This document shows positions 574 to 18,710 of a stretch of 64,000 nucleotides of DNA, one piece after another. The position numbers and the translations under genes are program-made. The stretch covers positions 2,637 through 66,636 of IMG/VR virus record IMGVR_UViG_3300033141_004448, one strand, 5' to 3'. Position 1 is the first letter of the stretch, and every line of letters starts with the position of its first letter. Under the pieces are notes generated by a model. That model had not been told where the DNA came from, ran no database searches, and saw only the letters and a program-made list of their open reading frames with translations. Source of the stretch: a virus.

Positions 574-978
574 TCAATATGCGGGATGGAACATCGTTCC
601 TTTTAGCGTTGATTTCTTTAAGTTATCAAGTATGCGTTCCAAGAATAGAATGGCATAATCGGGTTCAAAATACCTAATATCGTGGTTTACATTCCACAAA
701 CTAGGAACTGGTAACAATGTCAGTTCATGCTTGCAATGTGGGCATTCAATATACGGAAGAATAGGTGCGTTACTATTGTATGCATTTTCCGAGTTATCTA
801 TACCAATTTTGTCAAACATAATTTCTAATTCAAGTGCGTTAATAACCCAATCATTACCTTCTATGTTCTCTCTACTGACAATTGGTTTATGACACATCGG
901 GCAACAAAAACCGAGCTGATTAGAACTTGTCGCGTGATTATACGCTTCGCAAGTTGGGCATTTCTCATCTTCGGGCAT
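574..978 (-). CDS. Cys-rich (zinc-ribbon) hypothetical protein
   Basis: Three CxxC pairs (CPTC, CPMC, CPHC); overlaps the GT4 stop. Confidence 0.6.
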   Translation of the reverse strand: MPEDEKCPTCEAYNHATSSNQLGFCCPMCHKPIVSRENIEGNDWVINALELEIMFDKIGIDNSENAYNSNAPILPYIECPHCKHELTLLPVPSLWNVNHDIRYFEPDYAILFLERILDNLKKSTLKGTMFHPAY

Positions 979-1960
979 TAAATTTCACCTCTAATTTCTC
1001 ATTGAATGTATTTGCCCACTTTAATGCATTCCATTTTTCCATGATTATATTTCGGTTATACTTAAGTAGATCTGATAACGGCACTTTACCCGCAATAAAA
1101 TTAATATTTGACACGAGATTATTTGCGTCTTTGTATTTTAACACGGAAAAACTATCCTCCTTTTTTGAATTAACAGATAATATTGGGTAAATTCCTCCAG
1201 CACAATATTCGAGTATCTTCAATTGTCGATTATTTTTACTTTGCGGCGACAAACAGGCAACGCCAACGTTCATTAATTTGAGATATTTTGGTAATTCATT
1301 TCTATTCTTTCCACCCAAATATATAGATCTACCGCGTGAATTATCACACCTTGCTTTCACTTCGTTACTCAACACGCCGCTACCGATTATATATCCCGTT
1401 ATATTCTTTTCACATAGCCTCATTGCTTTGATAAACGTGAATGGGTCTTCCACATGATTTAACGTTGCAAGTAATACAACATTAATTTCTTCAGACCATT
1501 CTGTTTTTAAATGGTATTCATAGCACTCCGTATATCGTTCTGGATTAATACAATGAGGAATGACGTTATCACGAATGCCATTTAATTCCGGCAAATCGTG
1601 ATTTTCAATCGTCCAGAAAGCGTGATCTTTAACTTTTCGTGCAAGTTCAATGTTAAAAGGCAACGTGTGGTATCGTGTCATGAACGGAATGTTTAGTTCC
1701 GCACACGCTTGCGATTCACGGTCGCCGAGGCACAAACAAAAATCAAACTGCAAAGTTTCCCAAATTTGCTTTAATTTAAATTTTAGGCGTGAATGATCAT
1801 AATCGAACTTATGAATATCTTTACCTTCAATGCGTGTGGAATTATTTACCCGTGCACAAAGAAATGTTAATTCGTGGTCGCGTTCGAGGAGATCACAATT
1901 TGTCGTCCATGCTCCTGACATGCCAGGAATTAGGTCGTATGACACTACTAAGATCTTAAT
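965..1960 (-). CDS. Glycosyltransferase, GT-B/GT4-like
   Basis: C-terminal GSG...KILEYCAGG motif; in-frame extension to ATT at 1960 gives the canonical (M)KILVVSYD first strand after GGGGTG; track start is 1945. Confidence 0.8.
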   Translation of the reverse strand: MKILVVSYDLIPGMSGAWTTNCDLLERDHELTFLCARVNNSTRIEGKDIHKFDYDHSRLKFKLKQIWETLQFDFCLCLGDRESQACAELNIPFMTRYHTLPFNIELARKVKDHAFWTIENHDLPELNGIRDNVIPHCINPERYTECYEYHLKTEWSEEINVVLLATLNHVEDPFTFIKAMRLCEKNITGYIIGSGVLSNEVKARCDNSRGRSIYLGGKNRNELPKYLKLMNVGVACLSPQSKNNRQLKILEYCAGGIYPILSVNSKKEDSFSVLKYKDANNLVSNINFIAGKVPLSDLLKYNRNIIMEKWNALKWANTFNEKLEVKFNARR

Positions 1961-1963
1961 TTT

Positions 1964-2263
1964 TTACCACCCCATAGTTATGAATGCTACAACGTAACAA
2001 ATTATCACGACTAAAAAAAACAACCCCGATATTACATACGGCGCAACATCAGAAAAACTAATTTCAGGAACTTTATCTTCATCGTCATATTTGATTCTGA
2101 TTTTGTATTCAATTTCGTCAAGTTCGTATTCATCATCAAAACCGCAATTAATGCAATACCTATCTTTAATTTCGTGCCCGCAAAGCTTGCATTTTTTTAT
2201 TTCGATTTCTGTTGTTAGCTCCATTTTTGGTCGCGTGTATCCCGTTGTATGATAATATATCAC
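1964..2263 (-). CDS. Zinc-ribbon protein with C-terminal transmembrane helix
   Basis: CKLC...CINC and hydrophobic C-terminus. Confidence 0.6.
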   Translation of the reverse strand: MIYYHTTGYTRPKMELTTEIEIKKCKLCGHEIKDRYCINCGFDDEYELDEIEYKIRIKYDDEDKVPEISFSDVAPYVISGLFFLVVIICYVVAFITMGW

Positions 2264-2931
2264 TTATCTTCACCTTGCTGATCACGTTCAAGTGTATGAC
2301 CAACTTTAATGCAATCATCTGACGCTTCCGTGTCGTTACCATCGTAAGTTACACGCACGTATTCACGAATGAATCCATCACGTAATTCATTTGCATTTAC
2401 ACCAGTATCAACGTCTTCCTGCGTGTAACGGGGTGTTATTCCACGTGCTTCGTTTAAATCTATATTATTCATCACATCACGGTAATAATTTCCAAAAGAA
2501 AATATCCTACCATGCCTTCTCGGAAAATTAAAATCAACAAACACCATTCCAGAAACCGCTCTTCTCGTATCAGGCGGGCACGGCGTGCATTCTACATCTA
2601 TATGACCATGAGATTGTGATTCCATTTTTTCTTTCAATTCGGGAAATACCTTCTCTGCACAATAGCAACAATAGAAATCCATTTTATCAATGTTATCAAG
2701 GAAATCCACGAGCTCGGTATTCGTATAATGTGATAAATTCGTGAGTATGGTAAGAGGTTCGATTTTTATATAACAACCGCTTAAGTTATCGTTCATCTTT
2801 GGATAAGAATCTATGAGTGTCTTGCACGTACGACCTTTTAATTTTTTATGTATTTCGTCAAGAAGAAACATGCGGAAATTTTGAACGATCGCTTTATCAA
2901 TTTTATCAATTTCATCAATGAAATCTGCCAT
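2260..2931 (-). CDS. Hypothetical protein
   Basis: 223-aa ORF with overlapping start/stop on both sides. Confidence 0.6.
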   Translation of the reverse strand: MADFIDEIDKIDKAIVQNFRMFLLDEIHKKLKGRTCKTLIDSYPKMNDNLSGCYIKIEPLTILTNLSHYTNTELVDFLDNIDKMDFYCCYCAEKVFPELKEKMESQSHGHIDVECTPCPPDTRRAVSGMVFVDFNFPRRHGRIFSFGNYYRDVMNNIDLNEARGITPRYTQEDVDTGVNANELRDGFIREYVRVTYDGNDTEASDDCIKVGHTLERDQQGEDK

Positions 2932-3131
2932 TACATCCCACCTTTCATTATCGGGATAACCGTGATATTCATTCCTTCACTAATTTCTTCGTCCAATCCA
3001 ATACGCCTGCTTTCACGCTTTAGCACGACAGCATATCGCTTCGGATCATAACCGTTTGCTTCGAGAAAATCCCGAACGGTTGTTTTTTGCAATACAAGCA
3101 AGTCTTGAATTGGAGATCTCGGATTAGTCAT
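2931..3131 (-). CDS. Ubiquitin-like (MoaD/ThiS/SAMP beta-grasp) protein ending GGM
   Basis: ATG at 3131 after GGAG; TVRDFLE...YAVVL...LDEEISEGMNITVIPIMKGGM matches the ThiS/MoaD/SAMP pattern. Confidence 0.75.
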   Translation of the reverse strand: MTNPRSPIQDLLVLQKTTVRDFLEANGYDPKRYAVVLKRESRRIGLDEEISEGMNITVIPIMKGGM

Positions 3132-3993
3132 TACTACCAACTCCTTTTTGTTTAATAATATAATTATTATCATTTATTAACCGTTCTATTTGTGGCGGGT
3201 GATCGCTACGAAACCTATTAAGTAATAATAGTTGTGCCCAGTTTTTCCTGAACCACAAGTAATTACTTTTTATCCATTCCCTACGGAAATCGTCATCGCC
3301 ATCATGAAACGCTTTCTTTTTTGGATTGGAAGAATCACGCGTGCACGAACCCATTAATTTACGAATGTAATTTTCTTCTGTTGCAACATGACCATAATGG
3401 TAACAGCACGCCCCATTAACTCTGGCTATTTTCCTTCGGTTTTGCCATAACGTAGTATGTCGGGTATCGCCAATGTTGTCAAGTGTTTGCGGCTGTCGGT
3501 AATGGTATTTTAGGTCATCACGCCACCGAATGAATTTTAACATTCCCGTTTCATTTACTTTGTACCAATTAAAGCCCTCTGGAATACGACCGTAAAAATT
3601 AACGAAACGGTATAACAACACGTCATGTTTATTAAACAACCCTGCACAATACTTAATCTGACTTACATCCCTTGACTTGTAAAACTCATCCGTATCGATA
3701 ATCCACATCCACGTGCAATCAAGTTCTTTACGTATGAACTCAAGGTAAGTGTTCCGTTGCTCAGCTTCGTTATCAAAATTACCCGTCAGGAGGAATACTT
3801 TATCGGATCTTTCTTGCGAGTATTCTATACAAATATTCAGTGTATTATCCGGCACTTGATTAGAAAATTCTTTTTGTGCGCCATACACGATAATGAGGTG
3901 ATCAACGTATGGAAGGATACCTTCAATCGCATATTTCACGTACGGTTCTGAGTTATAGGCAATCATGCATCCAATAATCTTCATTTTCATCAT
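3124..3993 (-). CDS. Glycosyltransferase family 2 (GT-A)
   Basis: IAYNSE N-terminus, WMWIIDTDEF DxD motif, YHYGHV. Confidence 0.85.
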   Translation of the reverse strand: MMKMKIIGCMIAYNSEPYVKYAIEGILPYVDHLIIVYGAQKEFSNQVPDNTLNICIEYSQERSDKVFLLTGNFDNEAEQRNTYLEFIRKELDCTWMWIIDTDEFYKSRDVSQIKYCAGLFNKHDVLLYRFVNFYGRIPEGFNWYKVNETGMLKFIRWRDDLKYHYRQPQTLDNIGDTRHTTLWQNRRKIARVNGACCYHYGHVATEENYIRKLMGSCTRDSSNPKKKAFHDGDDDFRREWIKSNYLWFRKNWAQLLLLNRFRSDHPPQIERLINDNNYIIKQKGVGSND

Positions 3994-4241: not shown

Positions 4242-5141
4242 TCATTTCCGTTCTTCCTTCCTGTATTTCCGCTTATATACATCATCTAAACTAACCATCA
4301 TTTGAAAAATATTCACGCAATTTATTATCTCGAAACCGCATTTATCACCAAAGCTCATTGAAGCAACAGGATGTGCTATTACAGGATCAGTTCCCGTACA
4401 CTTTTCCTCTGACCATTTTGCGAATGCACGAAGATCCTTCGGAAGGCACTTACCACCGAGAGGAAACTTACTTTTTGACAAATATTTCCAGTGATCTTTT
4501 CCGATACGAGGATTGTCTGCGAATATTTCCATTACATTAGCACTATTACATATCTCTTGCATTTGATGTGCAAATAGACATTTCATGGCATAATAGCAAT
4601 TGGTAAAATATTTAATAAATTCAGCTTCAATCGGTTCAACGTCTAATAACTGTTCATTTTTCCAGATTAAATTAAATAAGTCGTGTATCTTGTACACGTA
4701 TTCATCCGATGGAAAAGATTCACCAATTATAGGTTTGCGTCTAGGTTTAATTATATCAGCTATTGCCGTTTTTTCATCCAAAAATTCGGGCATGCAACAA
4801 ATATACCAATCGTTATATTCTGCAATGTAATTATCAGTCGTAAGCGGTAGTACCGTAGATTTTATCACTATGATTTGGTCATCACGTTCTTTCGGGTGTA
4901 GCCATTCCATTACTTCGTCAAGTTCGGATAAGTCTTGCGTGCCGTCTTCTCTTGTAGGCGTGGGAACGCAAATAAACACGAAATCACAATTTTTACGAAT
5001 GTCATCACGCGTGGATTGTAATGATTTATACGCCACGTTATTATACTTATCATAAAGTAAGATATTAACGTCATTCACCTGACCGAACGCTTTTGCAAGT
5101 GCTTGACCAACCGTGCCCAAACCGATTATCCCGATTATCAT
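4242..5141 (-). CDS. UDP-glucose/GDP-mannose dehydrogenase family (short form)
   Basis: GIIGLGTVG Rossmann motif, FICVPTP, KSTVLP, PEFL, AEFIKY, catalytic GGKCLPKD; C-terminal domain appears absent. Confidence 0.9.
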   Translation of the reverse strand: MIIGIIGLGTVGQALAKAFGQVNDVNILLYDKYNNVAYKSLQSTRDDIRKNCDFVFICVPTPTREDGTQDLSELDEVMEWLHPKERDDQIIVIKSTVLPLTTDNYIAEYNDWYICCMPEFLDEKTAIADIIKPRRKPIIGESFPSDEYVYKIHDLFNLIWKNEQLLDVEPIEAEFIKYFTNCYYAMKCLFAHQMQEICNSANVMEIFADNPRIGKDHWKYLSKSKFPLGGKCLPKDLRAFAKWSEEKCTGTDPVIAHPVASMSFGDKCGFEIINCVNIFQMMVSLDDVYKRKYRKEERK

Positions 5142-5383: not shown

Positions 5384-5384
5384 T

Positions 5385-5765
5385 TTAATCCTCCGTTAAT
5401 AACTTCAGTAGCTTTTCTCTTGCACGGAACTCATTGCCATCACACAAATAAGTGAATGATTTCATCCACGCATTCCATATCCCGCGAAAAACACTGAGGT
5501 TTTTGCTACCCACTTCGAGTGCAACAACATTACAGATTTCATTCAATGTCATATCTATATCTTTCTCCATGATATAATCATTAAAATCACGATGTAACGA
5601 AAATCTCTTTATTCCCACAACGTGAATATTAGTTTTTGGGAATAAGTCTATTTTTACTGCTATAGAGTCTGCGAAATCTTCATACCACACGTCATATATG
5701 ATATTAAGTTTCTTACTTAATTTATCTTTTATTTTTTGTGCAAATTCATGAATATTTTTCTTCAA
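5385..5765 (-). CDS. Hypothetical protein
   Basis: 126-aa ORF in the operon, GGAGG upstream. Confidence 0.55.
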   Translation of the reverse strand: MKKNIHEFAQKIKDKLSKKLNIIYDVWYEDFADSIAVKIDLFPKTNIHVVGIKRFSLHRDFNDYIMEKDIDMTLNEICNVVALEVGSKNLSVFRGIWNAWMKSFTYLCDGNEFRAREKLLKLLTED

Positions 5766-6687
5766 GTTTCATTCCTCCTTTTTTATATTTTGATATTTTA
5801 TTATACGGCAATACATAATAACCCTTAAACATTCGTTTTATTTCTTTCACGGGCGAATGTAAAAAACCGTGCACGTTACCCAATTGTTTAATAAGATAAT
5901 AATGTTCGGTTTCATAACAACCAAAGCCTTTTTTGAAGTTCCACGTCCCGTCATTTATCTTTGCACTTGAGTGCATGTTGAATACCGATATATCCTGCAT
6001 TTTTGCAATATTAAGTTCTTCATTCAACAAAAATGTATTGCCGTCAAGGTAAAAGTATTTTGAGTCAAATGCAGAACGGTAATAATCAACGTGATATTCG
6101 TTCTTCAGAAATATTGCACCGCCTATCATCATATTCTTATAAAACACGCAAGATAAATACGAATTATCAAGTTCAAGTAACTTGCGAAAATAATCATACT
6201 CTATAACTTGCGATTTTTGCTCAAGAGAACGCTTGACGTGGATCTTGTACCATTCACTGAGATATTCATTACCCGTTTTCACGGAAAGAACTTTTTTCTT
6301 GTTTATTTTTCTGATTTTGAATTTCACGTCCGACCTATAATTATCCATCACGTTACCAACCGAGCGTAAATTCACGTATTGTATCGGGTTCACGATTGTC
6401 GTGTCAAATAAATTAAAAAGCTTGCTTTTCATATTCTTCAAGAATAATGGTGCGGTTACATACGTGAAAATATCAACGTCAAATCCTCTTAGCATATTAA
6501 ATATTTTCATGATTTCGTCTGGTAACGTAGGAGCGTAGCTTGAATATCCTGGCTGGCAGTTTGCAACATTACCGTATTTTGTTTTACGAATGAATATCGG
6601 TAACCCGTTCATGCGTATGAATTTATCTTTGTTGTAATACGATTGCAAGAAGTCAGAGTATTCTTCGGATTGTTGAACCATTATCAT
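5746..6687 (-). CDS. FemAB-like GNAT (aminoacyl/acyl transferase)
   Basis: MIGGAIFL...YYRSA...GNTFLL...FKKGFG pattern typical of FemAB-like proteins. Confidence 0.8.
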   Translation of the reverse strand: MIMVQQSEEYSDFLQSYYNKDKFIRMNGLPIFIRKTKYGNVANCQPGYSSYAPTLPDEIMKIFNMLRGFDVDIFTYVTAPLFLKNMKSKLFNLFDTTIVNPIQYVNLRSVGNVMDNYRSDVKFKIRKINKKKVLSVKTGNEYLSEWYKIHVKRSLEQKSQVIEYDYFRKLLELDNSYLSCVFYKNMMIGGAIFLKNEYHVDYYRSAFDSKYFYLDGNTFLLNEELNIAKMQDISVFNMHSSAKINDGTWNFKKGFGCYETEHYYLIKQLGNVHGFLHSPVKEIKRMFKGYYVLPYNKISKYKKGGMKLEEKYS

Positions 6688-6980
6688 TCTTCCACTTCCG
6701 AGAGATATTTTCGAATTCTATCCATTTCGTCATACCACCATTTCGGAATGGTTAATTTCTTTTCTTCTATTATTTTTTTTCGTTCGAGCAAGTAACCTAT
6801 GCGTGCCAAAATAATTTTTTCTTTTGGTACATCAACTCGTGTGAATATACTAACAGAATAATCTTCATCATATTCGCCACTTTCTATAACTTCTTTAATA
6901 GCTTCATCTAATGAGTCAAAGTCTTCACTATATTCTTCATACGGATCGCCTTTCATAAAAATCACGGTATATTTTTTCAC
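6684..6980 (-). CDS. Hypothetical protein
   Basis: Coupled 98-aa ORF. Confidence 0.55.
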   Translation of the reverse strand: MKKYTVIFMKGDPYEEYSEDFDSLDEAIKEVIESGEYDEDYSVSIFTRVDVPKEKIILARIGYLLERKKIIEEKKLTIPKWWYDEMDRIRKYLSEVEE

Positions 6981-7879
6981 TTTATCGCCTCCATGAATTG
7001 ATCTACTCGGTAACCAATCGTGTGTTTTTTTACCAGCTCATACTCCATTTTCCAATTGTCTGGACAATCCAATATCCGTTTTATCAGCAATAACAACCCT
7101 TCTTTATCGTATGTTACTTCAGTTCCGAATAATTCGGCAGGGTACACGTCTGAAGCTAATATATTCCCGCTACCAATCACTTCAAAAAATCGTAGCGTGG
7201 CAATCTTCACGTCAGGGTGATTTACGTGTAATGTTACTCTTGCACGGTTAATCAATTTATTTAATTCTTCCCTGAACACTTCATTACCGAGTGAAGAAGA
7301 GAACACTTTAATGTCTATGCCATTCGAGGTGAGATATTTTAAGGTTTCAATACGATTCGGATACAACGAACCGTACCACAACACGTCAATGTCTTTCGCA
7401 ATATCGAGTTTCTTCACGTATGGCAAGACACAACATGGATTAAACGCAATGCCATTTTCGTATTTTTCCGCTTTGTCGGGATCTGTCGTGAGGTAATAAT
7501 CAAAAAACGGTTGCCAATGCAAGAAATAATCAGTTCCCGCGTGGTCATCACCACACACGCCGATTATTTTAACGCCGAGTTTTCGAATATCATTCAAAAC
7601 GGCAGGGTGGACATTTTTATCACCCCACCATAGATAGTAGTCAATATCATTATTCTCGCAAAAATCTATTATTTTATCATAGTATGACCAATATTTTTTC
7701 CGTGTATGTGGAAAAACAATATCGTGGAGTAAATGTTCCCAATCATACCCGATCTTTATATCAAGTATCTTTCTCGTGTCAAATACTGTAACTTCGTGCC
7801 CACGCCTTCGCAGTTCTTCGACATACGTTTTTTCCATTGGTATTTTTCCAGAATAATTTCCCGTAAATAAGAATTTCAT
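6977..7879 (-). CDS. CgeB/YkvP-like glycosyltransferase (GT-B)
   Basis: RRGHEV, DVLWYGSLYPNR, LRFFEVIGSG, HTIGYRV. Confidence 0.85.
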   Translation of the reverse strand: MKFLFTGNYSGKIPMEKTYVEELRRRGHEVTVFDTRKILDIKIGYDWEHLLHDIVFPHTRKKYWSYYDKIIDFCENNDIDYYLWWGDKNVHPAVLNDIRKLGVKIIGVCGDDHAGTDYFLHWQPFFDYYLTTDPDKAEKYENGIAFNPCCVLPYVKKLDIAKDIDVLWYGSLYPNRIETLKYLTSNGIDIKVFSSSLGNEVFREELNKLINRARVTLHVNHPDVKIATLRFFEVIGSGNILASDVYPAELFGTEVTYDKEGLLLLIKRILDCPDNWKMEYELVKKHTIGYRVDQFMEAIK

Positions 7880-11689: not shown

Positions 11690-11819
11690 TTTTTTTAACC
11701 GCACGTAGTATTAATTCAAATATTCTTCTCGGAAATTTTAGTATTCGTAATTTCCACGCAATGTCTGACCACATTTCGAATGGTACCGACAAAAACCTTC
11801 TCAAGCCAGAAAAATTTTT
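11679..11819 (-). pseudogene. Displaced duplicate C-terminus of the radical SAM gene
   Basis: Start-less frame KNFSGLRRFLSVPFEMWSDIAWKLRILKFPRRIFELILRAVKKNEV* aligns with KNFRGLKRLLSLPFELWANVGWKFRIFRFPKKYFEYVLQLVKR (23/43 identical). Confidence 0.85.
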
Positions 11820-12469
11820 CGATTAAACTCCCTCTCCAGAATCCTCTGTTTTCGAATGATCGTAAATCCAACTTTTTTATAAAAATTATATTTGTCTTCC
11901 TTTTTTGATATACGCAACTCATATACTCTTTTATAGTGTTCTCTTTTCTTTTTACGTTCATATATTTTTGTATCTATACCAAAATACTTAGAAAGTAGAT
12001 ATTGTGCGAAATCTATCCATTCTTTATTAGTATTAATTAGTATCAGACTGAAATATTTACCTATTGAATTACGGTTTTTCCTACGATAATTATATATTCC
12101 AACACTTCCATCAGAATTAAACCACGATATAAGAAATTCACGTGGATATTTTTCGCATAAGCACATTAATTCTTTAGTAGTTTTTGATTTAAACCATTTA
12201 TGAAATGCTTGACTATAAAAAATTACAAGATAATTTTCTTTTCTATTTTTTGTCCCACGTGGTACTGTAATAATAGGAGGATTATTACTCTTACCAAACG
12301 TTCGTAAGACATTCTGCATATGGAATCTAAATTCCTCTGTAAATTCTTTGTCTATACTTTGCATCCTTATCATAAATTGAGATGGTTTAACAACATACAC
12401 ATTACCATCTCCAACAATTAAATTACTTAATATATAAGACAACGAAGGCGAACACTCTGGTTCAATCAT
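11801..12469 (-). mobile_element. Free-standing LAGLIDADG homing endonuclease 2
   Basis: YILSNLIVGDG and FLISWFNSDG; paralog of 9886..10554 (both 222 aa; shared LCEKYP and RKQR). Confidence 0.9.
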
Positions 12470-13692
12470 TTTTTATAACTCCTTTTTACTAATTGTAATA
12501 CATATTCGAAGTATTTTTTAGGAAAACGAAAAATACGAAACTTCCATCCAACGTTTGCCCACAGTTCGAATGGTAATGACAATAGACGTTTTAAACCTCT
12601 AAAATTTTTTCTTATATTATCTTTTCTGAATTTCAAACCACATAACCAATATAAACTATGCTTTGCAATATCGAAATTTACGTGCTCGGGAAACATTCTC
12701 TGGAGTTCAGACGGATAACTTGCATAAGTGTACATACTAAATCTTGCCTGAGGAATCCATGATTTTGTAATATCAATGAATGTCATTAAGTCTAATAAAT
12801 CTTCACGCGTTTCGGTAGGCAGTCCTACCATGAAAGAGAACATTGGAGATACATTAGGAAATTTTTTGAATACGAATTCTAACTTAAAGTAGTTTAAAAC
12901 CGTTGATTTAAACTTGCAATTGAGTAATTCTCTTAACCGCTCACTTGTTGTTTCCAATCCGATTTCGATTGACACGCAACCGCAATCACTCATTTCTTTT
13001 ATAGTTTTATAATTGATTTTATTAACGTCCATGTTACAATGCCATTTCATCTTGCATGACTTTAATTCTTCTCCAATTCTTTTATCCCACTTGAAATTAG
13101 GATCGCCGATAGATACAAAATCGTGACCAGCATTTTTTATTGTCCATATTTCTTTTATTACACGATTGACAGGAACTGGAGTCCACTTGCCATTCACGGT
13201 ACAAAAACGGCATTTATTATTACAGCCGAAACTCGTGAAAAGTAACGGTTTAAATATCTTATAGAAGCGTTTCGTTTTTTCGGTAACGGGATCTTGCATA
13301 TCGAATCTTTCATTTATGAAATGCACGTCATAACTTAATGATTTATAATAAAACGATTCGAGTTTTTCTTTGCCTTTATTTATTGCCTTGTACCCTCCAA
13401 CATAAAAATTCATAATCCCTAATTTTTCACGAAGATAACCCATTAATAACTCGCAATGTTCCCATTGCGTGCCTTCCATTGAAGAAAACATTACATGTTT
13501 TGCCTTACCCGCAAGTTCTATTAGCGTATAATAAGAATCACACCGTTCGTCCCAATACTCGACATTATACCCTTCTGCTTCATATCGTGCTCCTACTTTC
13601 ATTATGGAAAGCGGAATGTATTGGTCGCCAGAATGCTCGTCAATCTTTGGATAAATAAGTAAATAATCTATTTCATTCATAACATTTTGCAT
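12466..13692 (-). CDS. Radical SAM protein with B12-binding-like N-terminal domain
   Basis: TSFGCNNKCRFC (CxxxCxxC), IGLET, FMVGLPTET; N-terminal LLIYP...PLSIM. Confidence 0.85.
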   Translation of the reverse strand: MQNVMNEIDYLLIYPKIDEHSGDQYIPLSIMKVGARYEAEGYNVEYWDERCDSYYTLIELAGKAKHVMFSSMEGTQWEHCELLMGYLREKLGIMNFYVGGYKAINKGKEKLESFYYKSLSYDVHFINERFDMQDPVTEKTKRFYKIFKPLLFTSFGCNNKCRFCTVNGKWTPVPVNRVIKEIWTIKNAGHDFVSIGDPNFKWDKRIGEELKSCKMKWHCNMDVNKINYKTIKEMSDCGCVSIEIGLETTSERLRELLNCKFKSTVLNYFKLEFVFKKFPNVSPMFSFMVGLPTETREDLLDLMTFIDITKSWIPQARFSMYTYASYPSELQRMFPEHVNFDIAKHSLYWLCGLKFRKDNIRKNFRGLKRLLSLPFELWANVGWKFRIFRFPKKYFEYVLQLVKRSYKK

Positions 13693-14291
13693 GTATCATC
13701 ACCATTTTTGAATAATACTTCTGATATGTCAAACACGCTATATTTATAAAACCGGACATTGATATTTTTCCACACGATCTTTATGTTATGCACCTCATAG
13801 CGTAATCGCGGTGGTAATATCGTTATATCGGCATTAAAATACTCTGAAATGTTTATCACGTTTTCCGTGATGTCGTCAGAAAAATATGGCATATCCGACT
13901 GCAAGCGTACAGGCGTGTTAATATCAAGGTATAAACAAAATTGCGTGAATAACTCATTAAAAAAATCAAATAATTTTATGTGGTATTTACCGTTTATAAT
14001 TGACTTTATATCATCTCTATATTTTTTATAATACTTGAATTTATAAAACGTGTCGTCATATTTCTTCCACAATTTCCTTTGCCACGAAGAATCGCCGTTG
14101 TATATACGTATGTCTTCGAATTCAGTGAAACGATTATTAATGACAGGTATCGTTACACCATAACATTTATTATACAATTGTGGCAATTTCTCGCGATCTA
14201 ACACGACAAAAACGTCTGCTTCCTTTAATGCACGCCAAAAATGTATCGTGCCAAAAAAAGGGATGTAATCAATTAATATTTTCCTCATCAT
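13677..14291 (-). CDS. WbqC-like protein (divergent)
   Basis: YIPFFG...ADVFVVLD...TIPV...WQRK; paralog of 15174..15908. Confidence 0.7.
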   Translation of the reverse strand: MMRKILIDYIPFFGTIHFWRALKEADVFVVLDREKLPQLYNKCYGVTIPVINNRFTEFEDIRIYNGDSSWQRKLWKKYDDTFYKFKYYKKYRDDIKSIINGKYHIKLFDFFNELFTQFCLYLDINTPVRLQSDMPYFSDDITENVINISEYFNADITILPPRLRYEVHNIKIVWKNINVRFYKYSVFDISEVLFKNGDDTCKML

Positions 14292-14487: not shown

Positions 14488-15174
14488 TCAAATATGGTAA
14501 TCGACTATTACAACATAATCATTCGGCTTTAGTTTATCGAGAAACCTCTCTTTGAATTTCATTGCCCAACTTACAACATTTTCTGTTCTTTCGTACCATT
14601 TACCATTTTTACACAACACCGAATAGGTATGAAAATACTTACTCGATTTAATTAAATCTTTTTTATACTCTTCTGAATATGGAAAGTGTGAAATTTCATA
14701 TTCAGCTACTATTTGTATTTTCTTTTGTATTCCTTCCCAATCAACCTGAAAAACATACGCACCGTCATACCCGCATAATCCACTATCACGACCCATTAAT
14801 CCTTTTTTTCCTTTTATTGCACCAAATGGAGGCTCTTTCAAAAGTAACATTCCTTGCCACCGACCGCCAATTTCATACCAGTCATACTTTGCATTTGGGT
14901 TACGCCAATAACCATAAACATTTATATTTTCGCTAAATTCATAACCATACCATTTTTCTAACCATTCTTTTGCATTCTTATATTCATACTCTTTTTGATA
15001 ATCTGAATGTTTTACCTTCCACTCTTCGAATTTACTTTCGAGTTCGTCTTTTTTAATTTCAACAACAAACTCTTTTTTCAAGCACTCATAATACGGTTTC
15101 ATCACTTTTTCGAGTTCGTCCCTTATATTTTCTGGTTTTTTAGGGAATACCACCATTAATGCATAATGTGTCAT
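14488..15174 (-). CDS. Viral hypothetical protein
   Basis: NPNAKYDWYEIGGRWQG and terminal VIVDYH, a pattern I recall from uncharacterised phage proteins. Confidence 0.65.
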   Translation of the reverse strand: MTHYALMVVFPKKPENIRDELEKVMKPYYECLKKEFVVEIKKDELESKFEEWKVKHSDYQKEYEYKNAKEWLEKWYGYEFSENINVYGYWRNPNAKYDWYEIGGRWQGMLLLKEPPFGAIKGKKGLMGRDSGLCGYDGAYVFQVDWEGIQKKIQIVAEYEISHFPYSEEYKKDLIKSSKYFHTYSVLCKNGKWYERTENVVSWAMKFKERFLDKLKPNDYVVIVDYHI

Positions 15175-15908
15175 TATATCAACTCCTTTGTTTTTTCTCC
15201 GATATTGAATAGAGCGTCAATTACGCTCATTTGTGGAATAAATGGTTCATAAACTTGCTCATACACGGGATGCTCATATTCCTGAAACGAAATCTCAATG
15301 CCTTCACGTTCGAATAAGTCCATGTCGGCATAATTCTTTCCGTCTGCACCGAATAGGAAATGATCGATCTTTAAATTGTAACACAATTGGACAATCTTAT
15401 CGCTTGCGCTACCGAATAAATATTTCAAGTCTTCCTTTTTTCGTTCCGAATATCTCCACCTGCCGCCAGACTGGACTATCACGTATGATTTAATATCCAG
15501 CCAATTTTTAATCAGGAATATCAATTTGATATTCAATTCGGATAAACGTTTATTTTCTGCACAAAGAACGCGCTTGATATACTTGTAGTATTTCTTGAAG
15601 TATTTTGCTTTGCCGTAATTCACTTCTAACGCACGTAAGATTTTCCGTTGCCAATTCTGAGTGTTATCAATTTTTATCTCATTAAATCTCATTTGTTTTC
15701 CGGTATGAATTATCGGCACGGTTATATATTGCCACCCTTTCTCCGTGCCAATGCGTATCTTATTCCTGTTATCAAACTTATTCTTATCTCCAAAGTTAGC
15801 GGGATAACAATCCATTAATACGAACACGTCCGACCGTTTCATTTTCGACCAAAACCCTAGGTATGGAAGAAAAATCGGTTGATGTGCAGACAATATTGTA
15901 TTTGCCAA
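15174..15908 (-). CDS. WbqC-like protein
   Basis: AHQPIFLPYLGF, DVFVLMD, NRNKI, TVP, NYGKA, HPVYEQ...FIPQMSVIDALFN. Confidence 0.9.
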   Translation of the reverse strand: MANTILSAHQPIFLPYLGFWSKMKRSDVFVLMDCYPANFGDKNKFDNRNKIRIGTEKGWQYITVPIIHTGKQMRFNEIKIDNTQNWQRKILRALEVNYGKAKYFKKYYKYIKRVLCAENKRLSELNIKLIFLIKNWLDIKSYVIVQSGGRWRYSERKKEDLKYLFGSASDKIVQLCYNLKIDHFLFGADGKNYADMDLFEREGIEISFQEYEHPVYEQVYEPFIPQMSVIDALFNIGEKTKELI

Positions 15909-15917
15909 TCTATCAAC

Positions 15918-16190
15918 TCATTCATTCTTCGATTTTGCTTTCAACGTTGCAATACGATTAATGGTGTAATAAAAAAGATCTGGCGTATCTTTAACAAAAT
16001 GTAATAATTGTAATACCATTTCCGGTTGATTAATCAGATTCATTTCTATTTTATTTACACCTTCATTAGTAAGCCTGTATTGTTTTATACCATTTACTTC
16101 AATATACTCCATTAATCCTTCTTCGCATAGAGAATTCAATGCTTCTTTAATTACATTTTCTTTCATTCTATCAACTCCTTTTACATGCAT
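15918..16190 (-). CDS. Winged-helix-like small protein
   Basis: ALNSLCEEGLM...YRLTNEG wing motif. Confidence 0.55.
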   Translation of the reverse strand: MHVKGVDRMKENVIKEALNSLCEEGLMEYIEVNGIKQYRLTNEGVNKIEMNLINQPEMVLQLLHFVKDTPDLFYYTINRIATLKAKSKNE

Positions 16191-16825
16191 AATTCTGTTT
16201 CGATTATATTTTTTATATCAATCACTTTACGCAACTGAACCCTGTGAATGTTCGGAAACCTCCAATACGGATCTTTACCCGCAAGATAATGAAACCTCGC
16301 GTGTTTCTTCTCCTGAAACGGTATGGATTTCAGCCACCCAAAATGATGAATTCGGTGATTATTCAATATGATCAAATTTGACGTATCAACGTTAATCGAC
16401 TCGTGCACGGTACCACGCCACGAGTAATACTTTTTATTGTATAACCTGCACTGATAATCGGGATAACAACCAGAATCAATTCTTATGTGCTCGTAATCTC
16501 CGAAATAATTATATCTCGGAAACGCATACGCCTTATCGTTTCTCAGCTCCATAAAAAATATGGAATAAAGAGTATCGGTGTTGATATACTCGTCCGCGTC
16601 GAGCATTAGAATCCAATCCGTGCTTGCATTAACCGCCATTTTGTTTCTCACGCAAGAAAAATTCTTTATTAACTTGCTTTCGTTATCTTGCGGATAAACG
16701 GTATAGAAGATCTTATTCTCACCGACCATTCTTGACCGAATGATCTTTAGCTGTCGATCCTTCCACCGAAGATACTGCTCGTCAGTACCGTCATTGCGGC
16801 TAATAACACAGATTGTTAATTCCAT
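16181..16825 (-). CDS. Glycosyltransferase family 2
   Basis: FSCVRN, DWILMLDADE, YPDYQCRLY, WRGTVHE, IHHFG. Confidence 0.85.
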   Translation of the reverse strand: MELTICVISRNDGTDEQYLRWKDRQLKIIRSRMVGENKIFYTVYPQDNESKLIKNFSCVRNKMAVNASTDWILMLDADEYINTDTLYSIFFMELRNDKAYAFPRYNYFGDYEHIRIDSGCYPDYQCRLYNKKYYSWRGTVHESINVDTSNLIILNNHRIHHFGWLKSIPFQEKKHARFHYLAGKDPYWRFPNIHRVQLRKVIDIKNIIETELCM

Positions 16826-16837
16826 TTTATCAACTCC

Positions 16838-16981: not shown

Positions 16982-17143
16982 GATTTTTCACCGAGTAATG
17001 TATATCACAACGTGTATATTAATATTATGATTAAGAAAATGGTATTGGAAAACGTGATGGCAGGTATTAGTTTTCACAATATATACTCTAAAAAAATTGA
17101 TAAAAAAGTACTATTTTTGAATATGAAAAAGTGTTATTTCCTA

Positions 17144-17195
17144 GTGACAGTGACAGTAGTGACAGTAATAGTGACAGTGACAGATATTCTGTCAC
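17144..17195. repeat. Five direct GTGACAG repeats plus one inverted copy in the divergent intergenic region
   Basis: Copies at 17144, 17150, 17159, 17171, 17177; inverted CTGTCAC at 17189. Confidence 0.85.
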
Positions 17196-17353
17196 GAAAA
17201 AGTACAATCTGTACTTGGTAGGCGCGACCGAGAAAACCACTTTTTGTTCTTCCTTTATAAATAAAAACAAGAAAAAATTTAAAAATAGCAAAAATGATAT
17301 GAGAAGTATGAAAAAAATTGTAACGAAAATATGAAAAATAATGATTATTAGGT

Positions 17354-17560
17354 GTGAAAAGTATGGTCAGAAAAATCCGCTTCACGATAAGTCTTGATGA
17401 AATCACGTATAATAAATTAGAATATTACCGTGTTAAGCTTCACCAGAAACGAAGCGAGGTAATAAAAAATGCAATCTACTTGTGGTTCGAAAATATTCTC
17501 ACTAATCCGATACTAAAAAAGGTGCTAACGGATGACGAAAACGAAGATAAAGAAGAATAA
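17354..17560 (+). CDS. Ribbon-helix-helix (CopG-like) regulator
   Basis: RFTISLDE...KRSEVIKNAI. Confidence 0.7.
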   Translation: MKSMVRKIRFTISLDEITYNKLEYYRVKLHQKRSEVIKNAIYLWFENILTNPILKKVLTDDENEDKEE

Positions 17561-17798
17561 AAAGAAATGGAAGTGTGTAGGTGAACGACAATATATTGTA
17601 TGTCTTCCACAATTTTATGCTGAAAAAATAGACTCACTCGTGAAAAGTTCACTTTATCCATCAGAAGACGCATTATTCATTTCAATGGTTGAATGGTGGT
17701 TGAATCAACCGTCCACGCAAAGAAAGATAGATTATGCTGAGGAGTGGCAAGCAGAAAATCAAATTGAAATTGAAGGAGAATACGAAAATTTTTCTTGA
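17532..17798 (+). CDS. RHH-like protein
   Basis: YIVCLP...KIDSLVKSSLYPS pattern. Confidence 0.5.
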   Translation: MTKTKIKKNKKKWKCVGERQYIVCLPQFYAEKIDSLVKSSLYPSEDALFISMVEWWLNQPSTQRKIDYAEEWQAENQIEIEGEYENFS

Positions 17799-17835
17799 AG
17801 AAAGATTTTTATTTTTACTTTGTTACTAACTTAGT

Positions 17836-17970
17836 ATGAAATATATCAATATCGTTTTTGAGGATAAAGAATTTGAATTTCTGAAAGAAAAAAAAGGCAA
17901 TTTATCATGGCGTGAATTTATTTTAAAGTTACTTGAGGTGGATAAAAAGAATGGAAGAAAAAAGAAATGA
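17836..17970 (+). CDS. 44-aa RHH-like protein
   Basis: Hand translation MKYINIVFEDKEFEFLKEKKGNLSWREFILKLLEVDKKNGRKKK*. Confidence 0.6.
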   Translation: MKYINIVFEDKEFEFLKEKKGNLSWREFILKLLEVDKKNGRKKK

Positions 17971-18101
17971 AAAAGAAATCGCTATTTCTATGTTAAGTAA
18001 TTTTTTTGAGAGGAATGAAATATTCAATTTTAAAATATCGGACACGAAAGAATATAATAGTGACACGAATCAACTTATTAGTTGTTTTATCATAGAAATG
18101 A

Positions 18102-18710
18102 ATGGGATCGAAAAGAAAAAATAAACTCAGTGAAAATACGTTGAGTAATTTTGATAACTTTTTGTTTATCGGGGCGCACCCTGACGATATTGTCATTAGT
18201 TGCGGTGGAATGATACAACGGTTGTTAAAGCACGGTAAAACTGTAATTGCGTTGTGCTTGACAGGTTTTAGAAACAAAGTAAGATCGAATGAATATATTA
18301 AGGGAATGAGATTATTAAGCGTAAACGATTGGTCAATATTTGAATTTAATGACAAGGAAATCAAATTGAAAGAAATTTTACCGTGCATTGAAAAATTCAT
18401 TTCTTCGTATGAAATTAATACGATATTCACGCATTGGCACGGTTGTGTTCATCAAGATCATAGGGTAGTATCGGAAGCAAGTCGTATTGCCGCAAGAAAA
18501 GGCAACGTGAATTTGATCTACTACGAAGATTACAGGCACAAACTAAGCCAGTTTGCGTGGAAGCCGAACACGTTTTTCACAATGACAGAAGAAGAGTTGG
18601 ATAAAAAAAGAAAGGCATTATACTGCCACGAATCGCAAAAAGGAACGTGGATGGAGAAGGTACTTCGCGATAATGTCGAGCGTTTTGAGATAGGATACTT
18701 GTCATTATAA
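18102..18710 (+). CDS. PIG-L/LmbE family de-N-acetylase
   Basis: GAHPDD, HQDH, HESQ motifs. Confidence 0.9.
   Translation: MGSKRKNKLSENTLSNFDNFLFIGAHPDDIVISCGGMIQRLLKHGKTVIALCLTGFRNKVRSNEYIKGMRLLSVNDWSIFEFNDKEIKLKEILPCIEKFISSYEINTIFTHWHGCVHQDHRVVSEASRIAARKGNVNLIYYEDYRHKLSQFAWKPNTFFTMTEEELDKKRKALYCHESQKGTWMEKVLRDNVERFEIGYLSL

What the first reader, a model, noticed from the sequence alone, without database searches (positions are those of the whole stretch)
965..18710. Large virus-encoded glycan synthesis and tailoring island
Seen: GT4, two GT2, two CgeB-like GTs, one divergent GT, an NDP-sugar dehydrogenase, a FemAB-like GNAT, two WbqC paralogs, a B12-type radical SAM enzyme and a PIG-L de-N-acetylase. 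Established: WbqC occurs in O-antigen loci and is proposed to be a glycyl transferase; FemAB enzymes transfer amino acids from aa-tRNA; B12 radical SAM enzymes are often methylases. Inference: an oligosaccharide with uronic acid, de-N-acetylated then aminoacylated sugars and methylation. No flippase or oligosaccharyltransferase is visible, which fits cytoplasmic stepwise assembly on protein.
Basis: partly seen in the sequence, partly recalled or inferred. Interest (0 to 1): 0.7.

Follow-up and report, generated by a model that had tools for sequence, protein, structure and literature searches.

The report
Archaeal-type virus glycan-building gene island
A 66.6 kb tailed virus, probably of an archaeon, gives about a third of its genome to soluble enzymes that build a sugar chain and seem to hang amino acids on it; what the chain is attached to is not known.

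Summary
A seventh glycosyltransferase lies just outside the interval (20499-23129). It is split by an intein and heads the tail-gene operon.

The record is a 66.6 kb tailed virus, CheckV 98% complete, with archaeal-type replication genes.

New here: a confident model of WbqC matches BshC, the bacillithiol cysteine ligase, best (Z 13.7), then class I aminoacyl-tRNA synthetases. WbqC lies within 200 bp of a PIG-L deacetylase in 30 of 43 viral and 23 of 80 cellular loci. The FemAB-like protein matches FemX by profile (E 1e-12). "Remove the acetyl group, then add amino acids" is therefore well supported.

Weaker points:
- The dehydrogenase lacks its UDP-binding domain.
- The radical SAM enzyme resembles a sugar dehydratase as much as a methylase.
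- The target is unproven.

I favour virion proteins (about 0.4). The whole record has no membrane enzyme, TET/JBP, ThyA homologue or ParB. Host surface glycan and viral DNA remain rivals.

This is a new variant of a known kind. The scan has noted WbqC/PIG-L cassettes in other phages before.

The parts
965..1945 (-). GT-B glycosyltransferase, GT4-like, 326 aa
   Evidence: No Pfam, PHROG, NCBIfam or PDB sequence hit. Atlas model TM 0.79-0.83 to clusters carrying glycosyltransferase families (mostly GT4/GT1), feature score 0.98.
1964..2263 (-). 99 aa zinc-ribbon protein with a C-terminal membrane helix, the only membrane-type protein in the island
   Evidence: CxxC pairs in the translation. Maximum hydropathy 2.99 over 19 residues.
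2931..3173 (-). ThiS-like beta-grasp protein ending in GGM
   Evidence: PF02597, 23 bits against a cut-off of 22.5. Its part in the pathway is unknown.
3124..3993 (-). GT-A (GT2) glycosyltransferase, 289 aa
   Evidence: PF00535, 24.0 bits against a cut-off of 23.3. DxD motif 'DTD' in the translation.
4242..5141 (-). Short UDP-glucose/GDP-mannose dehydrogenase-like protein, 299 aa, with no UDP-binding domain
   Evidence: PF03721 and PF00984 match; PF03720 does not. phrog_9148 at E 5.6e-40, covering profile positions 1-276 of 382. Aligns to AlgD residues 76-279, including the catalytic 'GGKCLPKD'. Equally short homologues occur in 21 of 43 viral WbqC loci.
5746..6687 (-). Fem-type (FemABX-like GNAT) aminoacyl transferase, 313 aa
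   Evidence: 164 homologues at E<=1e-3. Profile A4 hits FemX 1xe4 at E 9.9e-13 and lipid II:glycine glycyltransferase 6snr at E 3.4e-9. Of the 32 alignment members, 30 carry Acetyltransf_6 and 12 carry FemAB; the viral protein itself has no Pfam hit. TIGR03019 at E 9.5e-5.
6977..7879 (-).
   Evidence: PF13524, 28.8 bits against a cut-off of 25. NF053598 at E 3.8e-6.
9078..9914 (-). Second Glyco_trans_1_2-like GT-B; weak call
   Evidence: PF13524, 20.3 bits, below the cut-off of 25, E 5.7e-4.
9886..10554 (-). Free-standing LAGLIDADG homing endonuclease
   Evidence: PF14528 at E 1.6e-9. 42.5% identical to 11801-12469.
10659..11552 (-). Divergent GT-B glycosyltransferase, 297 aa
   Evidence: No family hit. 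Atlas: GT-B fold, TM 0.70-0.75. Nearest clusters by features are viral, and two of them carry PF09198 in 40% and 97% of members.
11801..12469 (-). Free-standing LAGLIDADG homing endonuclease; its start overlaps the radical SAM stop
   Evidence: PF14528 at E 2.1e-14; paralogy shown.
12466..13692 (-). Class B-type radical SAM enzyme, 408 aa
   Evidence: PF04055, 59 bits. CxxxCxxC motif 'CNNKCRFC'. Best solved relative is AprD4 6fd2, E 1.2e-9. 29% identical over its full length (E 2e-47) to L068:5181-6488, which has PF02310 B12-binding plus Radical_SAM and lies next to a WbqC gene.
13677..14291 (-). WbqC paralogue 2, divergent, 204 aa
   Evidence: PF08889, 65 bits. Lacks the HQP and NRNKIR stretches. 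Tree end branch 2.3 against a median of 0.41.
14488..15174 (-). 228 aa protein of unknown function; its start overlaps the WbqC1 stop by one base
   Evidence: phrog_10079 at E 5.3e-13. Weak hit to the BshC coiled-coil domain, E 0.0042. The AF2 model is unusable, pLDDT 43.9.
15174..15908 (-). WbqC paralogue 1, 244 aa: predicted amino acid:amino-sugar ligase with a BshC / class I aaRS-like fold
   Evidence: PF08889, 198 bits. AF2 model pLDDT 89.9. VIA-align: BshC 4wbd Z 13.7 (223 residues aligned, rmsd 3.4), class I LysRS Z 11.4, MshC Z 6.1.
16181..16825 (-). Small GT-A (GT2-like) glycosyltransferase, 214 aa
   Evidence: PF00535 at 19.9 bits and PF13704 at 21 bits, both below cut-off. phrog_13126 beta-1,4-glycosyltransferase at E 3.4e-6. 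DxD motif 'DAD'.
18102..18710 (+). PIG-L/LmbE-family de-N-acetylase, 202 aa
   Evidence: PF02585, 68 bits. TIGR04001 BshB1 at E 1.2e-9. AHPDD and HQDH motifs in the translation.
20499..23129 (+). GT4-type GT-B glycosyltransferase interrupted by a LAGLIDADG intein of about 405 aa; first gene of the tail operon
   Evidence: Intein_splicing and LAGLIDADG_3. phrog_2170 glycosyltransferase at E 6.3e-18 on the C-extein. The intein runs from 'CFPDHTH' to 'IVHN' and is followed by 'CFWGGRNQ'. Intein-less homologues of 479 and 475 aa align across the junction. The next ORF, 23113-23586, is tail completion/Neck1-like.

Best explanation
The island is a working, virus-encoded pathway that runs in the cytoplasm.

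Proposed route:
1. It draws on host nucleotide sugars. No nucleotidyltransferase, dehydratase or aminotransferase gene was found.
2. The PIG-L enzyme removes the N-acetyl group from a HexNAc unit.
3. WbqC1, an ATP-using ligase of the BshC/MshC/class I aaRS type, joins an amino acid to the freed amine.
4. The Fem-type transferase may extend that amino acid from an aminoacyl-tRNA.
5. The class B radical SAM enzyme and the short dehydrogenase-like protein tailor the sugar further.
6. Up to seven soluble glycosyltransferases (five GT-B, two GT-A) assemble the chain.

Most likely the chain is put directly on virion proteins of the head or tail, as in chloroviruses, mimiviruses and some mycobacteriophages.

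Shown: gene content, folds and neighbourhoods. Inferred: substrate, order of steps, which amino acid, and the target.

Sub-claims:
- Functional glycan module: about 0.9.
- Deacetylate-then-aminoacylate chemistry: about 0.65.
- Virion proteins as the target: about 0.4.
For: Enzymes:
- WbqC1 fold: BshC Z 13.7. Only 3 of 48,161 chains reach Z>=8, and the other two are class I aaRS.

Neighbourhoods:
- A PIG-L homologue lies within 200 bp of WbqC in 30 of 43 viral and 23 of 80 cellular loci.
- A GNAT-PIG-L-WbqC-GT2 cassette sits in two Methanosarcinales loci. Two FemAB genes with WbqC, GT2 and GT4 sit in a third.
- A published GT4-WbqC-lmbE operon lies beside a ProRS paralogue and a tRNA (PMC10404621, figure legend).

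The genes look functional:
- ORFs are uninterrupted and several start/stop codons overlap.
- G+C matches the rest of the virus.

Target:
- All enzymes are soluble, and the record has no large multi-pass membrane protein.
- The whole record has no Tet_JBP, ThyA-family or ParB_N match.
- The intein-bearing GT4 is the first gene of the tail operon.
- Its intein-less homologue lies on the same 44,714 bp contig as relatives of the sheath (43%) and WbqC (55%).
- The C-extein's only PDB sequence hit at E<0.01 is chlorovirus GT B736L, E 3.5e-4.
- An Asgard head-tailed virus with a three-GT module has been read the same way (PMC13700489, passage).
Against: - There is no direct evidence for any acceptor.
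- By language-model features, the divergent GT (10659-11552) lies near viral clusters that partly carry the T4 DNA beta-glucosyltransferase family.
- Earlier notes of this scan read phage WbqC/PIG-L cassettes as DNA-directed.
- In 5 of the 7 viral loci I annotated, WbqC directly follows a DegT aminotransferase within nucleotide-sugar or nonulosonic-acid pathways. Tailoring may therefore happen on the nucleotide sugar, not on a finished chain.
- The virus lacks that aminotransferase.
- The same cassette in archaea sits in cell-surface glycan loci.
- WbqC2 may be inactive.
- The dehydrogenase lacks its UDP-binding domain.
- Four GT calls are weak or rest on structure alone (965-1945, 9078-9914, 10659-11552, 16181-16825).
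Confidence: 0.42

Rival explanations
1. The enzymes rebuild the host's own surface glycan. They would change nucleotide-sugar donors or lipid-linked precursors on the inner face of the membrane, and the host flippase and oligosaccharyltransferase would export the result. The gain could be exclusion of other viruses or a change in receptors.
For: - Methanosarcinales loci hold the same GNAT-PIG-L-WbqC-GT2 and FemAB-WbqC-GT sets, beside PMT_2-type membrane transferases and a polysaccharide export domain.
- WbqC in phages and cells sits inside nucleotide-sugar pathways.
- The best named equivalog among the dehydrogenase's NCBIfam hits is AglM, though far below its cut-off.
- The virus carries a beta-helix-like protein typical of glycan-binding or glycan-cutting fibres (the fold is my reading of the sequence).
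Against: - None of the viral enzymes has a membrane segment.
- Seven GTs is far more than I recall for phage serotype-conversion modules.
- One GT sits in the tail operon.
- I saw no integrase among the families scanned, so I see no sign of long residence in a host.
Confidence: 0.25
2. The glycan is put on the virus's own DNA as a hypermodified base that blocks host nucleases, like the phage sugar-hypermodification clusters.
For: - Phage GT-A and GT-B enzymes derived from cell-envelope pathways do glycosylate DNA (Pyle et al., bioRxiv 10.1101/2023.12.21.572611, abstract and section 9).
- The divergent GT lies near viral clusters with PF09198 by Atlas features.
- The virus has a C5 cytosine methylase at 42502-43731.
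- Earlier scan notes favour DNA for phage ParB-GT-PIG-L-WbqC cassettes.
Against: - The whole 98%-complete record has no match, even at E<=10, to Tet_JBP, Thymidylat_synt, ParB_N or T4-Gluco-transf.
- The control for Tet_JBP and T4-Gluco-transf shows these searches have little power.
- The methylase is 24 kb from the island.
- Known DNA glycans are short. Seven GTs plus a Fem-type enzyme go beyond any described case in the papers I saw.
Confidence: 0.15
3. The core trio (GT4, PIG-L, WbqC) makes a soluble small molecule of the bacillithiol or mycothiol kind, or only an unusual nucleotide sugar, and not a polymer on a macromolecule.
For: The trio GT4 + PIG-L deacetylase + BshC/MshC-like ligase (+ GNAT) is the enzyme logic of bacillithiol and mycothiol synthesis. 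The fold match is; the pathway itself is recalled.
Against: - Six further GTs, a Fem-type transferase and a radical SAM enzyme are not needed for such a product.
- WbqC is half the length of BshC and matches no BshC catalytic-domain family in Pfam.
Confidence: 0.08

Closest known systems
Bacillithiol (BshA/BshB/BshC) and mycothiol (MshA/MshB/MshC/MshD) biosynthesis
   Same: The enzyme logic is the same: a GT4 glycosyltransferase, a PIG-L/LmbE de-N-acetylase, then a class I aaRS-like ligase that joins an amino acid to the freed sugar amine, with a GNAT-fold enzyme alongside. The WbqC1 model matches BshC best (Z 13.7), and MshC at Z 6.1. PIG-L hits BshB1 and BshB2 models.
   Different: Those pathways make a small thiol. 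Here there are seven GTs, a Fem-type tRNA-dependent enzyme and a radical SAM enzyme. WbqC is 244 aa against 540 for BshC. It lacks the coiled-coil domain and matches no BshC catalytic-domain family by sequence. The amino acid is unknown.
Virus-encoded protein glycosylation in chloroviruses and mimiviruses (recalled; the PBCV-1 B736L title comes)
   Same: Many soluble virus-encoded GTs work in the cytoplasm without an oligosaccharyltransferase or flippase. The C-extein gives a weak sequence hit to PBCV-1 GT B736L (E 3.5e-4).
   Different: Those are giant viruses of eukaryotes that also encode whole nucleotide-sugar pathways. This is a 66.6 kb tailed virus with no such pathway genes, and it has amino-acid-adding enzymes.
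Virion glycosylation modules of tailed viruses: mycobacteriophage Che8-type GTs (recalled; also named in scan note e1-3284004) and the Asgard virus GuangzhiV1 three-GT locus (PMC13700489, passage)
   Same: A tailed virus carries GT genes beside or within its structural genes, read as virion or host protein modification.
   Different: Those modules have 2-5 genes. This one has about 14 glycan genes over 22 kb, including WbqC, Fem, PIG-L and a radical SAM enzyme, and an intein in one GT.
Phage DNA sugar hypermodification clusters (5mYOX/TET or ThyA homologue plus GTs; Pyle et al. bioRxiv 2023; Lee et al. NAR 2026, abstract only)
   Same: Viral GT-A and GT-B enzymes derived from envelope-glycan enzymes, with a C5 methylase in the genome.
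   Different: The record has no base-preparing enzyme and no ParB, and the methylase is not nearby.
Cellular surface-glycan and nonulosonic-acid loci with WbqC (Methanosarcinales L085, L107, L111; Omnitrophota L068; Nitrosopelagicus L092)
   Same: The cassette types are the same: GNAT-PIG-L-WbqC-GT2, FemAB with WbqC, and B12-radical SAM next to WbqC.
   Different: Cellular loci add aminotransferases, dehydratases, NeuB, nucleotidyltransferases, a full-length dehydrogenase and membrane export proteins. The virus has none of these.

Membership tests
WbqC-like family (PF08889) | Score above Pfam's gathering cut-off | tested here: met
   198 bits (15174-15908) and 65 bits (13677-14291) against a cut-off of 21.3.
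WbqC-like family (PF08889) | Conserved N-terminal HQPxYLP and NRNKIR stretches | tested here: met
   Met for WbqC1. WbqC2 lacks both stretches but keeps the four invariant columns D27, F29, R48 and Y216.
BshC/MshC-type amino acid:amino-sugar ligase | Class I aaRS-like Rossmann (HUP) catalytic fold | tested here: met
   Model pLDDT 89.9. BshC Z 13.7, class I LysRS Z 11.4, GluRS Z 8.4, MshC Z 6.1. Foldseek alone gave nothing at E<=1e-3.
BshC/MshC-type amino acid:amino-sugar ligase | Sequence membership, and BshC's C-terminal coiled-coil domain | tested here: not met
   WbqC1 and WbqC2 have no BshC-family Pfam hit at E<=0.01. At 244 aa there is no room for the coiled-coil domain. So it works like BshC but is not a member.
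BshC/MshC-type amino acid:amino-sugar ligase | ATP-dependent ligation of an amino acid to a sugar amine | not testable with these tools
   Needs an enzyme assay.
PIG-L/LmbE deacetylase (PF02585) | Family score, plus the metal-binding AHPDD and HxDH motifs | tested here: met
   68 bits against a cut-off of 28.2. 'GAHPDD' and 'HQDH' are in the translation. The motif definitions are recalled.
FemABX aminoacyl-tRNA-dependent transferases | Sequence relation to solved Fem enzymes | tested here: met
   Profile A4 (32 sequences) hits FemX at E 9.9e-13 and FmhB at E 3.4e-9.
FemABX aminoacyl-tRNA-dependent transferases | Direct match of the viral protein to Pfam FemAB | tested here: inconclusive
   The viral protein alone has 0 Pfam families. 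12 of the 32 alignment members match FemAB and 30 match Acetyltransf_6. TIGR03019 scores 21.6 bits against a cut-off of 260.
UDP-glucose/GDP-mannose 6-dehydrogenase | NAD-binding and central domains with the catalytic Cys | tested here: met
   PF03721 at 69.5 bits and PF00984 at 45.5 bits. 'GGKCLPKD' aligns with AlgD's 'GGSCLPKD'.
UDP-glucose/GDP-mannose 6-dehydrogenase | C-terminal UDP-sugar-binding domain (PF03720) | tested here: not met
   Absent. The protein ends about 50 residues after the catalytic motif. A cellular homologue, L107:5320-6603, has the domain. The four phage homologues I scanned (267-293 aa) also lack it.
Class B (B12-binding) radical SAM | CxxxCxxC motif and the radical SAM core | tested here: met
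   PF04055 at 59 bits. 'CNNKCRFC' in the translation.
Class B (B12-binding) radical SAM | N-terminal B12-binding domain (PF02310) | tested here: inconclusive
   Not detected in the viral protein. Its N-terminus aligns (29% identity over the full length, E 2e-47) with a homologue in which PF02310 matches residues 20-115. The best solved relative, AprD4, is a dehydratase by its NCBIfam name.
Phage DNA sugar-hypermodification cluster | An enzyme that prepares the base (5mYOX/TET-JBP or a ThyA homologue) | tested here: not met
   No match at E<=10 in the whole record. The Tet_JBP search has weak controls.
Phage DNA sugar-hypermodification cluster | ParB-N partner or a T4-type DNA glucosyltransferase | tested here: not met
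   No PF02195 or PF09198 match at E<=10. There is only an Atlas feature-level lead.
Virus-encoded virion glycosylation | Soluble GTs, with at least one linked to structural genes | tested here: met
   No membrane segments in the GTs. The intein-bearing GT heads the tail operon.
Virus-encoded virion glycosylation | Glycan found on virion proteins | not testable with these tools
   Needs particles or co-expression.
Intein (in the GT at 20499-23129) | Splicing domain, Cys1, terminal HN followed by Cys+1, and an intein-less allele | tested here: met
   PF14890 at 35.8 bits, equal to its cut-off, and PF14528 at E 1.2e-11. Boundaries read. Homologues of 479 and 475 aa lack the insert.

The most novel reading that the evidence does not exclude
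A tailed virus of an archaeon builds, in the cytoplasm, a peptide-bearing amino-sugar glycan on its own particle. It would use bacillithiol-like chemistry (deacetylase plus a WbqC ligase) and extend the product with a tRNA-dependent Fem transferase. That would be a glycopeptide coat made without any membrane step, from enzyme types not known in virion glycosylation. It would also give the WbqC family its first assigned mechanism.
Probability: 0.27. Interest if true: 0.8.

Novelty: new variant of a known kind. Interest (0 to 1): 0.58.

Why it matters
- Virus-made glycans shape host recognition and resistance to defences. For tailed viruses of archaea only small GT modules have been noted in the papers I saw.
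- This island is larger, about 14 glycan genes or a third of the genome. It joins two different ways of adding amino acids to sugars.
- It offers a testable function for the uncharacterised WbqC family. The gene pair WbqC/PIG-L is widespread in viruses and cells.
- The short, UDP-domain-less dehydrogenase recurs in 21 of 43 viral WbqC loci. It may be an oxidase for sugars that are not nucleotide-linked.
- An intein in a glycosyltransferase, with an intein-free allele in a related virus, argues that this GT is conserved and important in the lineage.

Tried and rejected
- Close relatives for synteny: the sheath alignment A3 found nothing in viral contigs or genome contigs, and only a 3.1 kb contig in metagenome contigs. 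The capsid found one 10.9 kb contig without the island.
- Host: TerL's best isolate hit is Halogranum tailed virus 1 at 28.7%. PolB hits are weak and bacterial. The WbqC tree (FastTree, 124 rows, all kept) pairs WbqC1 with the relative's copy (support 99) and then with a Planctomycetaceae row, so it gives no host.
- 14488-15174: the AF2 single-sequence model had pLDDT 43.9 and was not searched. The PDB sequence search found nothing. The same holds for 2260-2931.
- Foldseek on the WbqC model: no match at E<=1e-3. The fold came from the exhaustive VIA-align search.
- Rfam found 0 matches and there are no tRNA genes. Tandem repeats are unremarkable.
- Ser/Thr-rich tracts and N-x-S/T counts showed no clear acceptor. 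One beta-helix-like protein is an outlier, probably by composition.
- Sequencing runs: no RNA holder is listed. The only holder may be the source of this DNA.
- Split-gene idea for 10659-11552 and 9078-9914 around the endonuclease gene: rejected, because each has the length and matches of a whole GT-B.
- Literature: 'WbqC' occurs in 15 papers of the library. Judged by their titles and abstract openings, none addresses the enzyme's function or fold; I read passages in two of them.

Full report
WHAT THE RECORD IS

The window is bases 2637-66636 of a 66,636 bp linear virus record that CheckV rates 98% complete. It encodes a contractile-tail virion:
- sheath, 24717-26636
- baseplate, 30717-34961
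- HK97-type capsid, 49941-51014
- portal, 53559-55196
- large terminase, 56226-57881

Its replication and repair genes are of archaeal or eukaryotic type:
- family B polymerase
- a primase large-subunit-like protein (PF04104, E 5e-7)
- an ERCC4 nuclease
- a NucS-like nuclease

The best isolate match of the terminase is Halogranum tailed virus 1, at 28.7%. I call it "probably a virus of an archaeon", at about 0.75. The polymerase and a WbqC tree give no host.

CHECK OF THE OBSERVATION

Clear matches:
- WbqC1, 198 bits, and WbqC2, 65 bits
- PIG-L, 68 bits, with AHPDD and HQDH motifs
- radical SAM, 59 bits, with CxxxCxxC
- the two N-terminal domains of a UDP-glucose/GDP-mannose dehydrogenase
- one Glyco_trans_1_2 GT, 28.8 bits
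- one GT2, 24.0 bits

Weak matches:
- the second Glyco_trans_1_2, 20.3 bits, below cut-off
- the second GT2, 19.9 bits, helped by phrog_13126 at E 3.4e-6 and a DxD motif

Three ORFs have no family hit at all:
- 965-1945 has a GT-B/GT4 fold in the Atlas's own model, TM 0.79-0.83.
- 10659-11552 has a GT-B fold, TM 0.70-0.75.
- 5746-6687 has 164 homologues. A 32-sequence profile hits FemX at E 9.9e-13 and the lipid II glycine transferase at E 3.4e-9. Of the 32 members, 30 carry Acetyltransf_6 and 12 carry FemAB, but the viral protein alone has no hit.

1. The 876 aa ORF at 20499-23129 is a GT4-type GT-B enzyme split by an intein of about 405 aa that contains a LAGLIDADG endonuclease.
- The evidence is the Intein_splicing and LAGLIDADG_3 matches and the boundaries 'CFPDHTH ... 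IVHN|CFWGGRNQ'.
- Intein-less homologues of 479 and 475 aa align across the junction. The insert sits right before the conserved FWGGRNQxRK motif.
- This gene starts the plus-strand tail operon. The next ORF, which is Neck1/tail-completion-like, overlaps its end.

2. Two free-standing LAGLIDADG genes, 42.5% identical to each other, sit between island genes.

3. The dehydrogenase is truncated.
- It keeps the catalytic 'GGKCLPKD' but ends about 50 residues later, with no UDP-binding domain.
- This is not decay. Homologues occur in 21 of 43 viral WbqC loci. The four I scanned are 267-293 aa and show the N-terminal and central domains only.

4. WbqC2 is very divergent.

Counting the intein-bearing GT, the glycan-related set is seven GTs plus six tailoring enzymes spread over about 22 kb, a third of the genome. 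No nucleotidyltransferase, dehydratase/epimerase or aminotransferase appeared in any ORF scanned. The virus must therefore draw on host nucleotide sugars.

HOW IT MOST LIKELY WORKS

The key result is the fold of WbqC.
- The model was built from a 27-sequence alignment and has pLDDT 89.9.
- Against 48,161 representative chains, it matches BshC, the bacillithiol cysteine-adding enzyme, best: Z 13.7, 223 of 244 residues aligned, rmsd 3.4.
- Next come class I lysyl-tRNA synthetase (Z 11.4), glutamyl-tRNA synthetases (about Z 8), pantothenate synthetase and MshC (Z 6.1).
- Foldseek alone found nothing significant.
- The tool warns that Z 7-8 is common background. Here 13.7 stands well clear and covers the whole protein.

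So WbqC has the fold of adenylate-forming amino-acid ligases. That it uses ATP and an amino acid is my inference.

Gene neighbourhoods agree.
- A homologue of the viral PIG-L lies within 200 bp of WbqC in 30 of 43 viral loci and in 23 of 80 cellular loci. The 80 are the best of 333 found.
- Two Methanosarcinales loci read GNAT-PIG-L-WbqC-GT2 among GT4 genes. A third has two FemAB genes, WbqC, GT2 and GT4 (8 of the 80 loci were annotated).
- A JBC 2023 paper shows a GT4-WbqC-lmbE operon beside a ProRS paralogue and a tRNA (PMC10404621, figure legend only).

This is the enzyme logic of bacillithiol and mycothiol synthesis: GT4, PIG-L deacetylase, aaRS-like ligase, GNAT. I recall that pathway; it comes from no call.

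A Fem-type enzyme needs a free amine. The alpha-amine of a WbqC-installed residue is an obvious candidate, which is again inference. By profile, Fem-like genes accompany WbqC in 3 of 80 cellular and 0 of 43 viral loci. The combination is therefore rare.

The radical SAM enzyme is 29% identical over its full length to an Omnitrophota protein. That protein has B12-binding and radical SAM domains and sits 12 bp upstream of a WbqC gene. The best solved relative is AprD4, a sugar diol-dehydratase. Methylation is therefore only one option.

WHERE TAILORING HAPPENS

I annotated 7 of the 43 viral loci. In 5 of them WbqC directly follows a DegT aminotransferase, inside PseB/NeuB/CMP-transferase-type pathways. 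This suggests that WbqC and PIG-L often act on nucleotide sugars before transfer. The same may hold here.

THE TARGET

Points for virion proteins:
- All enzymes are soluble. The record has no large multi-pass membrane protein, so there is no flippase or oligosaccharyltransferase.
- One GT is in the tail operon. Its homologue travels with relatives of the sheath (43%) and WbqC (55%) on one 44.7 kb contig.
- Homing endonucleases and an intein persist only where related genomes share the target sites, so these genes are probably conserved in the lineage. This is inference.
- There is a weak hit to chlorovirus GT B736L.

Points for DNA:
- By Atlas features, 10659-11552 lies near viral clusters that partly carry the T4 beta-glucosyltransferase family.
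- The virus has a C5 methylase.
- Earlier notes of this scan read phage ParB-GT-PIG-L-WbqC cassettes as DNA-directed.

Against DNA:
- The whole record has no Tet_JBP, ThyA-family, ParB_N or T4-Gluco-transf match, even at E<=10. Two of these searches have weak controls.
- Pyle et al. report that intact DNA hypermodification pathways usually cluster (section 9).

Points for host surface glycan:
- The archaeal loci with the same cassette are envelope-glycan loci.

My odds: virion proteins 0.4, host glycan or host proteins 0.25, DNA 0.15, soluble product 0.08, other 0.1.

COMPARISON AND NOVELTY

GT modules in archaeal viruses are already in print:
- hexosyltransferases in Asgard viruses (passages)
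- a general remark in a survey of archaeal viral genomes
- a locus with three GTs, a dehydratase and a methyltransferase in an Asgard head-tailed virus, read as modification of viral or host proteins

I found no description of a WbqC/PIG-L/Fem/radical-SAM set in an archaeal virus, or of WbqC's fold (searches). Supplements were not consulted.

The scan itself has noted WbqC/PIG-L cassettes and the bacillithiol analogy in several phages. I reached the fold result before reading those notes.

I class the island as a new variant of a known kind. It is larger and chemically richer than the described viral glycan modules. It sits in a different viral lineage and lacks the ParB partner of the phage cassettes.

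Noticed in passing
window 20499-23129: An intein with a LAGLIDADG endonuclease is inserted in a glycosyltransferase, right before the conserved FWGGRNQxRK motif. A related virus contig has the intein-free allele (P0247, 479 aa).
   Followed up: yes
window 9886-10554 and 11801-12469: Two free-standing LAGLIDADG homing endonuclease paralogues (42.5% identical) are wedged between island genes. One overlaps the radical SAM stop and the other overlaps the start of a GT gene.
   Followed up: partly
window 2931-3173: A ThiS-like beta-grasp protein ends in GGM and overlaps the 3' end of the GT2 gene. It could be a sulfur carrier or a ubiquitin-like modifier. I saw no E1-like or JAMM partner among the families scanned.
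   Followed up: no
window 47102-48316 (-): A 404 aa protein with no family hit has 14 N-x-S/T sequons (3.5 per 100 aa, against 0-1.6 in all other ORFs of 150 aa or more). Its sequence looks like a parallel beta-helix fibre or depolymerase. It lies after the head-closure genes.
   Followed up: partly
window 4242-5141; loci L005, L012, L016, L038 and 17 more: A short UDP-sugar dehydrogenase-like protein (267-299 aa in the five proteins I scanned, catalytic Cys kept, UDP-binding domain missing) recurs in 21 of 43 viral WbqC loci but in only 1 of 80 cellular loci, where it is full length.
   Followed up: partly
L068:5181-7162: In an Omnitrophota genome a B12-binding radical SAM gene, 29% identical to the viral one, lies 12 bp upstream of WbqC in a NeuB/CMP-transferase cluster. 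This points to a functional link between WbqC and the radical SAM enzyme.
   Followed up: partly
window 42502-43731: A C5 cytosine DNA methylase (PF00145, E 9e-57) lies next to the polymerase gene, so the viral DNA is probably 5mC-modified at some sites.
   Followed up: no
window 16825-18100: A stretch of about 1.3 kb has no convincing ORF. It separates the minus-strand operon from the plus-strand PIG-L unit and holds short tandem repeats (17142-17183, 17290-17345). It may be a divergent control region.
   Followed up: no
window 18722-19892: An HNH endonuclease and a NucS-like nuclease sit between PIG-L and the intein-bearing GT. A PD-(D/E)XK nuclease flanks the island on the left (window 2-577, continuing upstream).
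   Followed up: no
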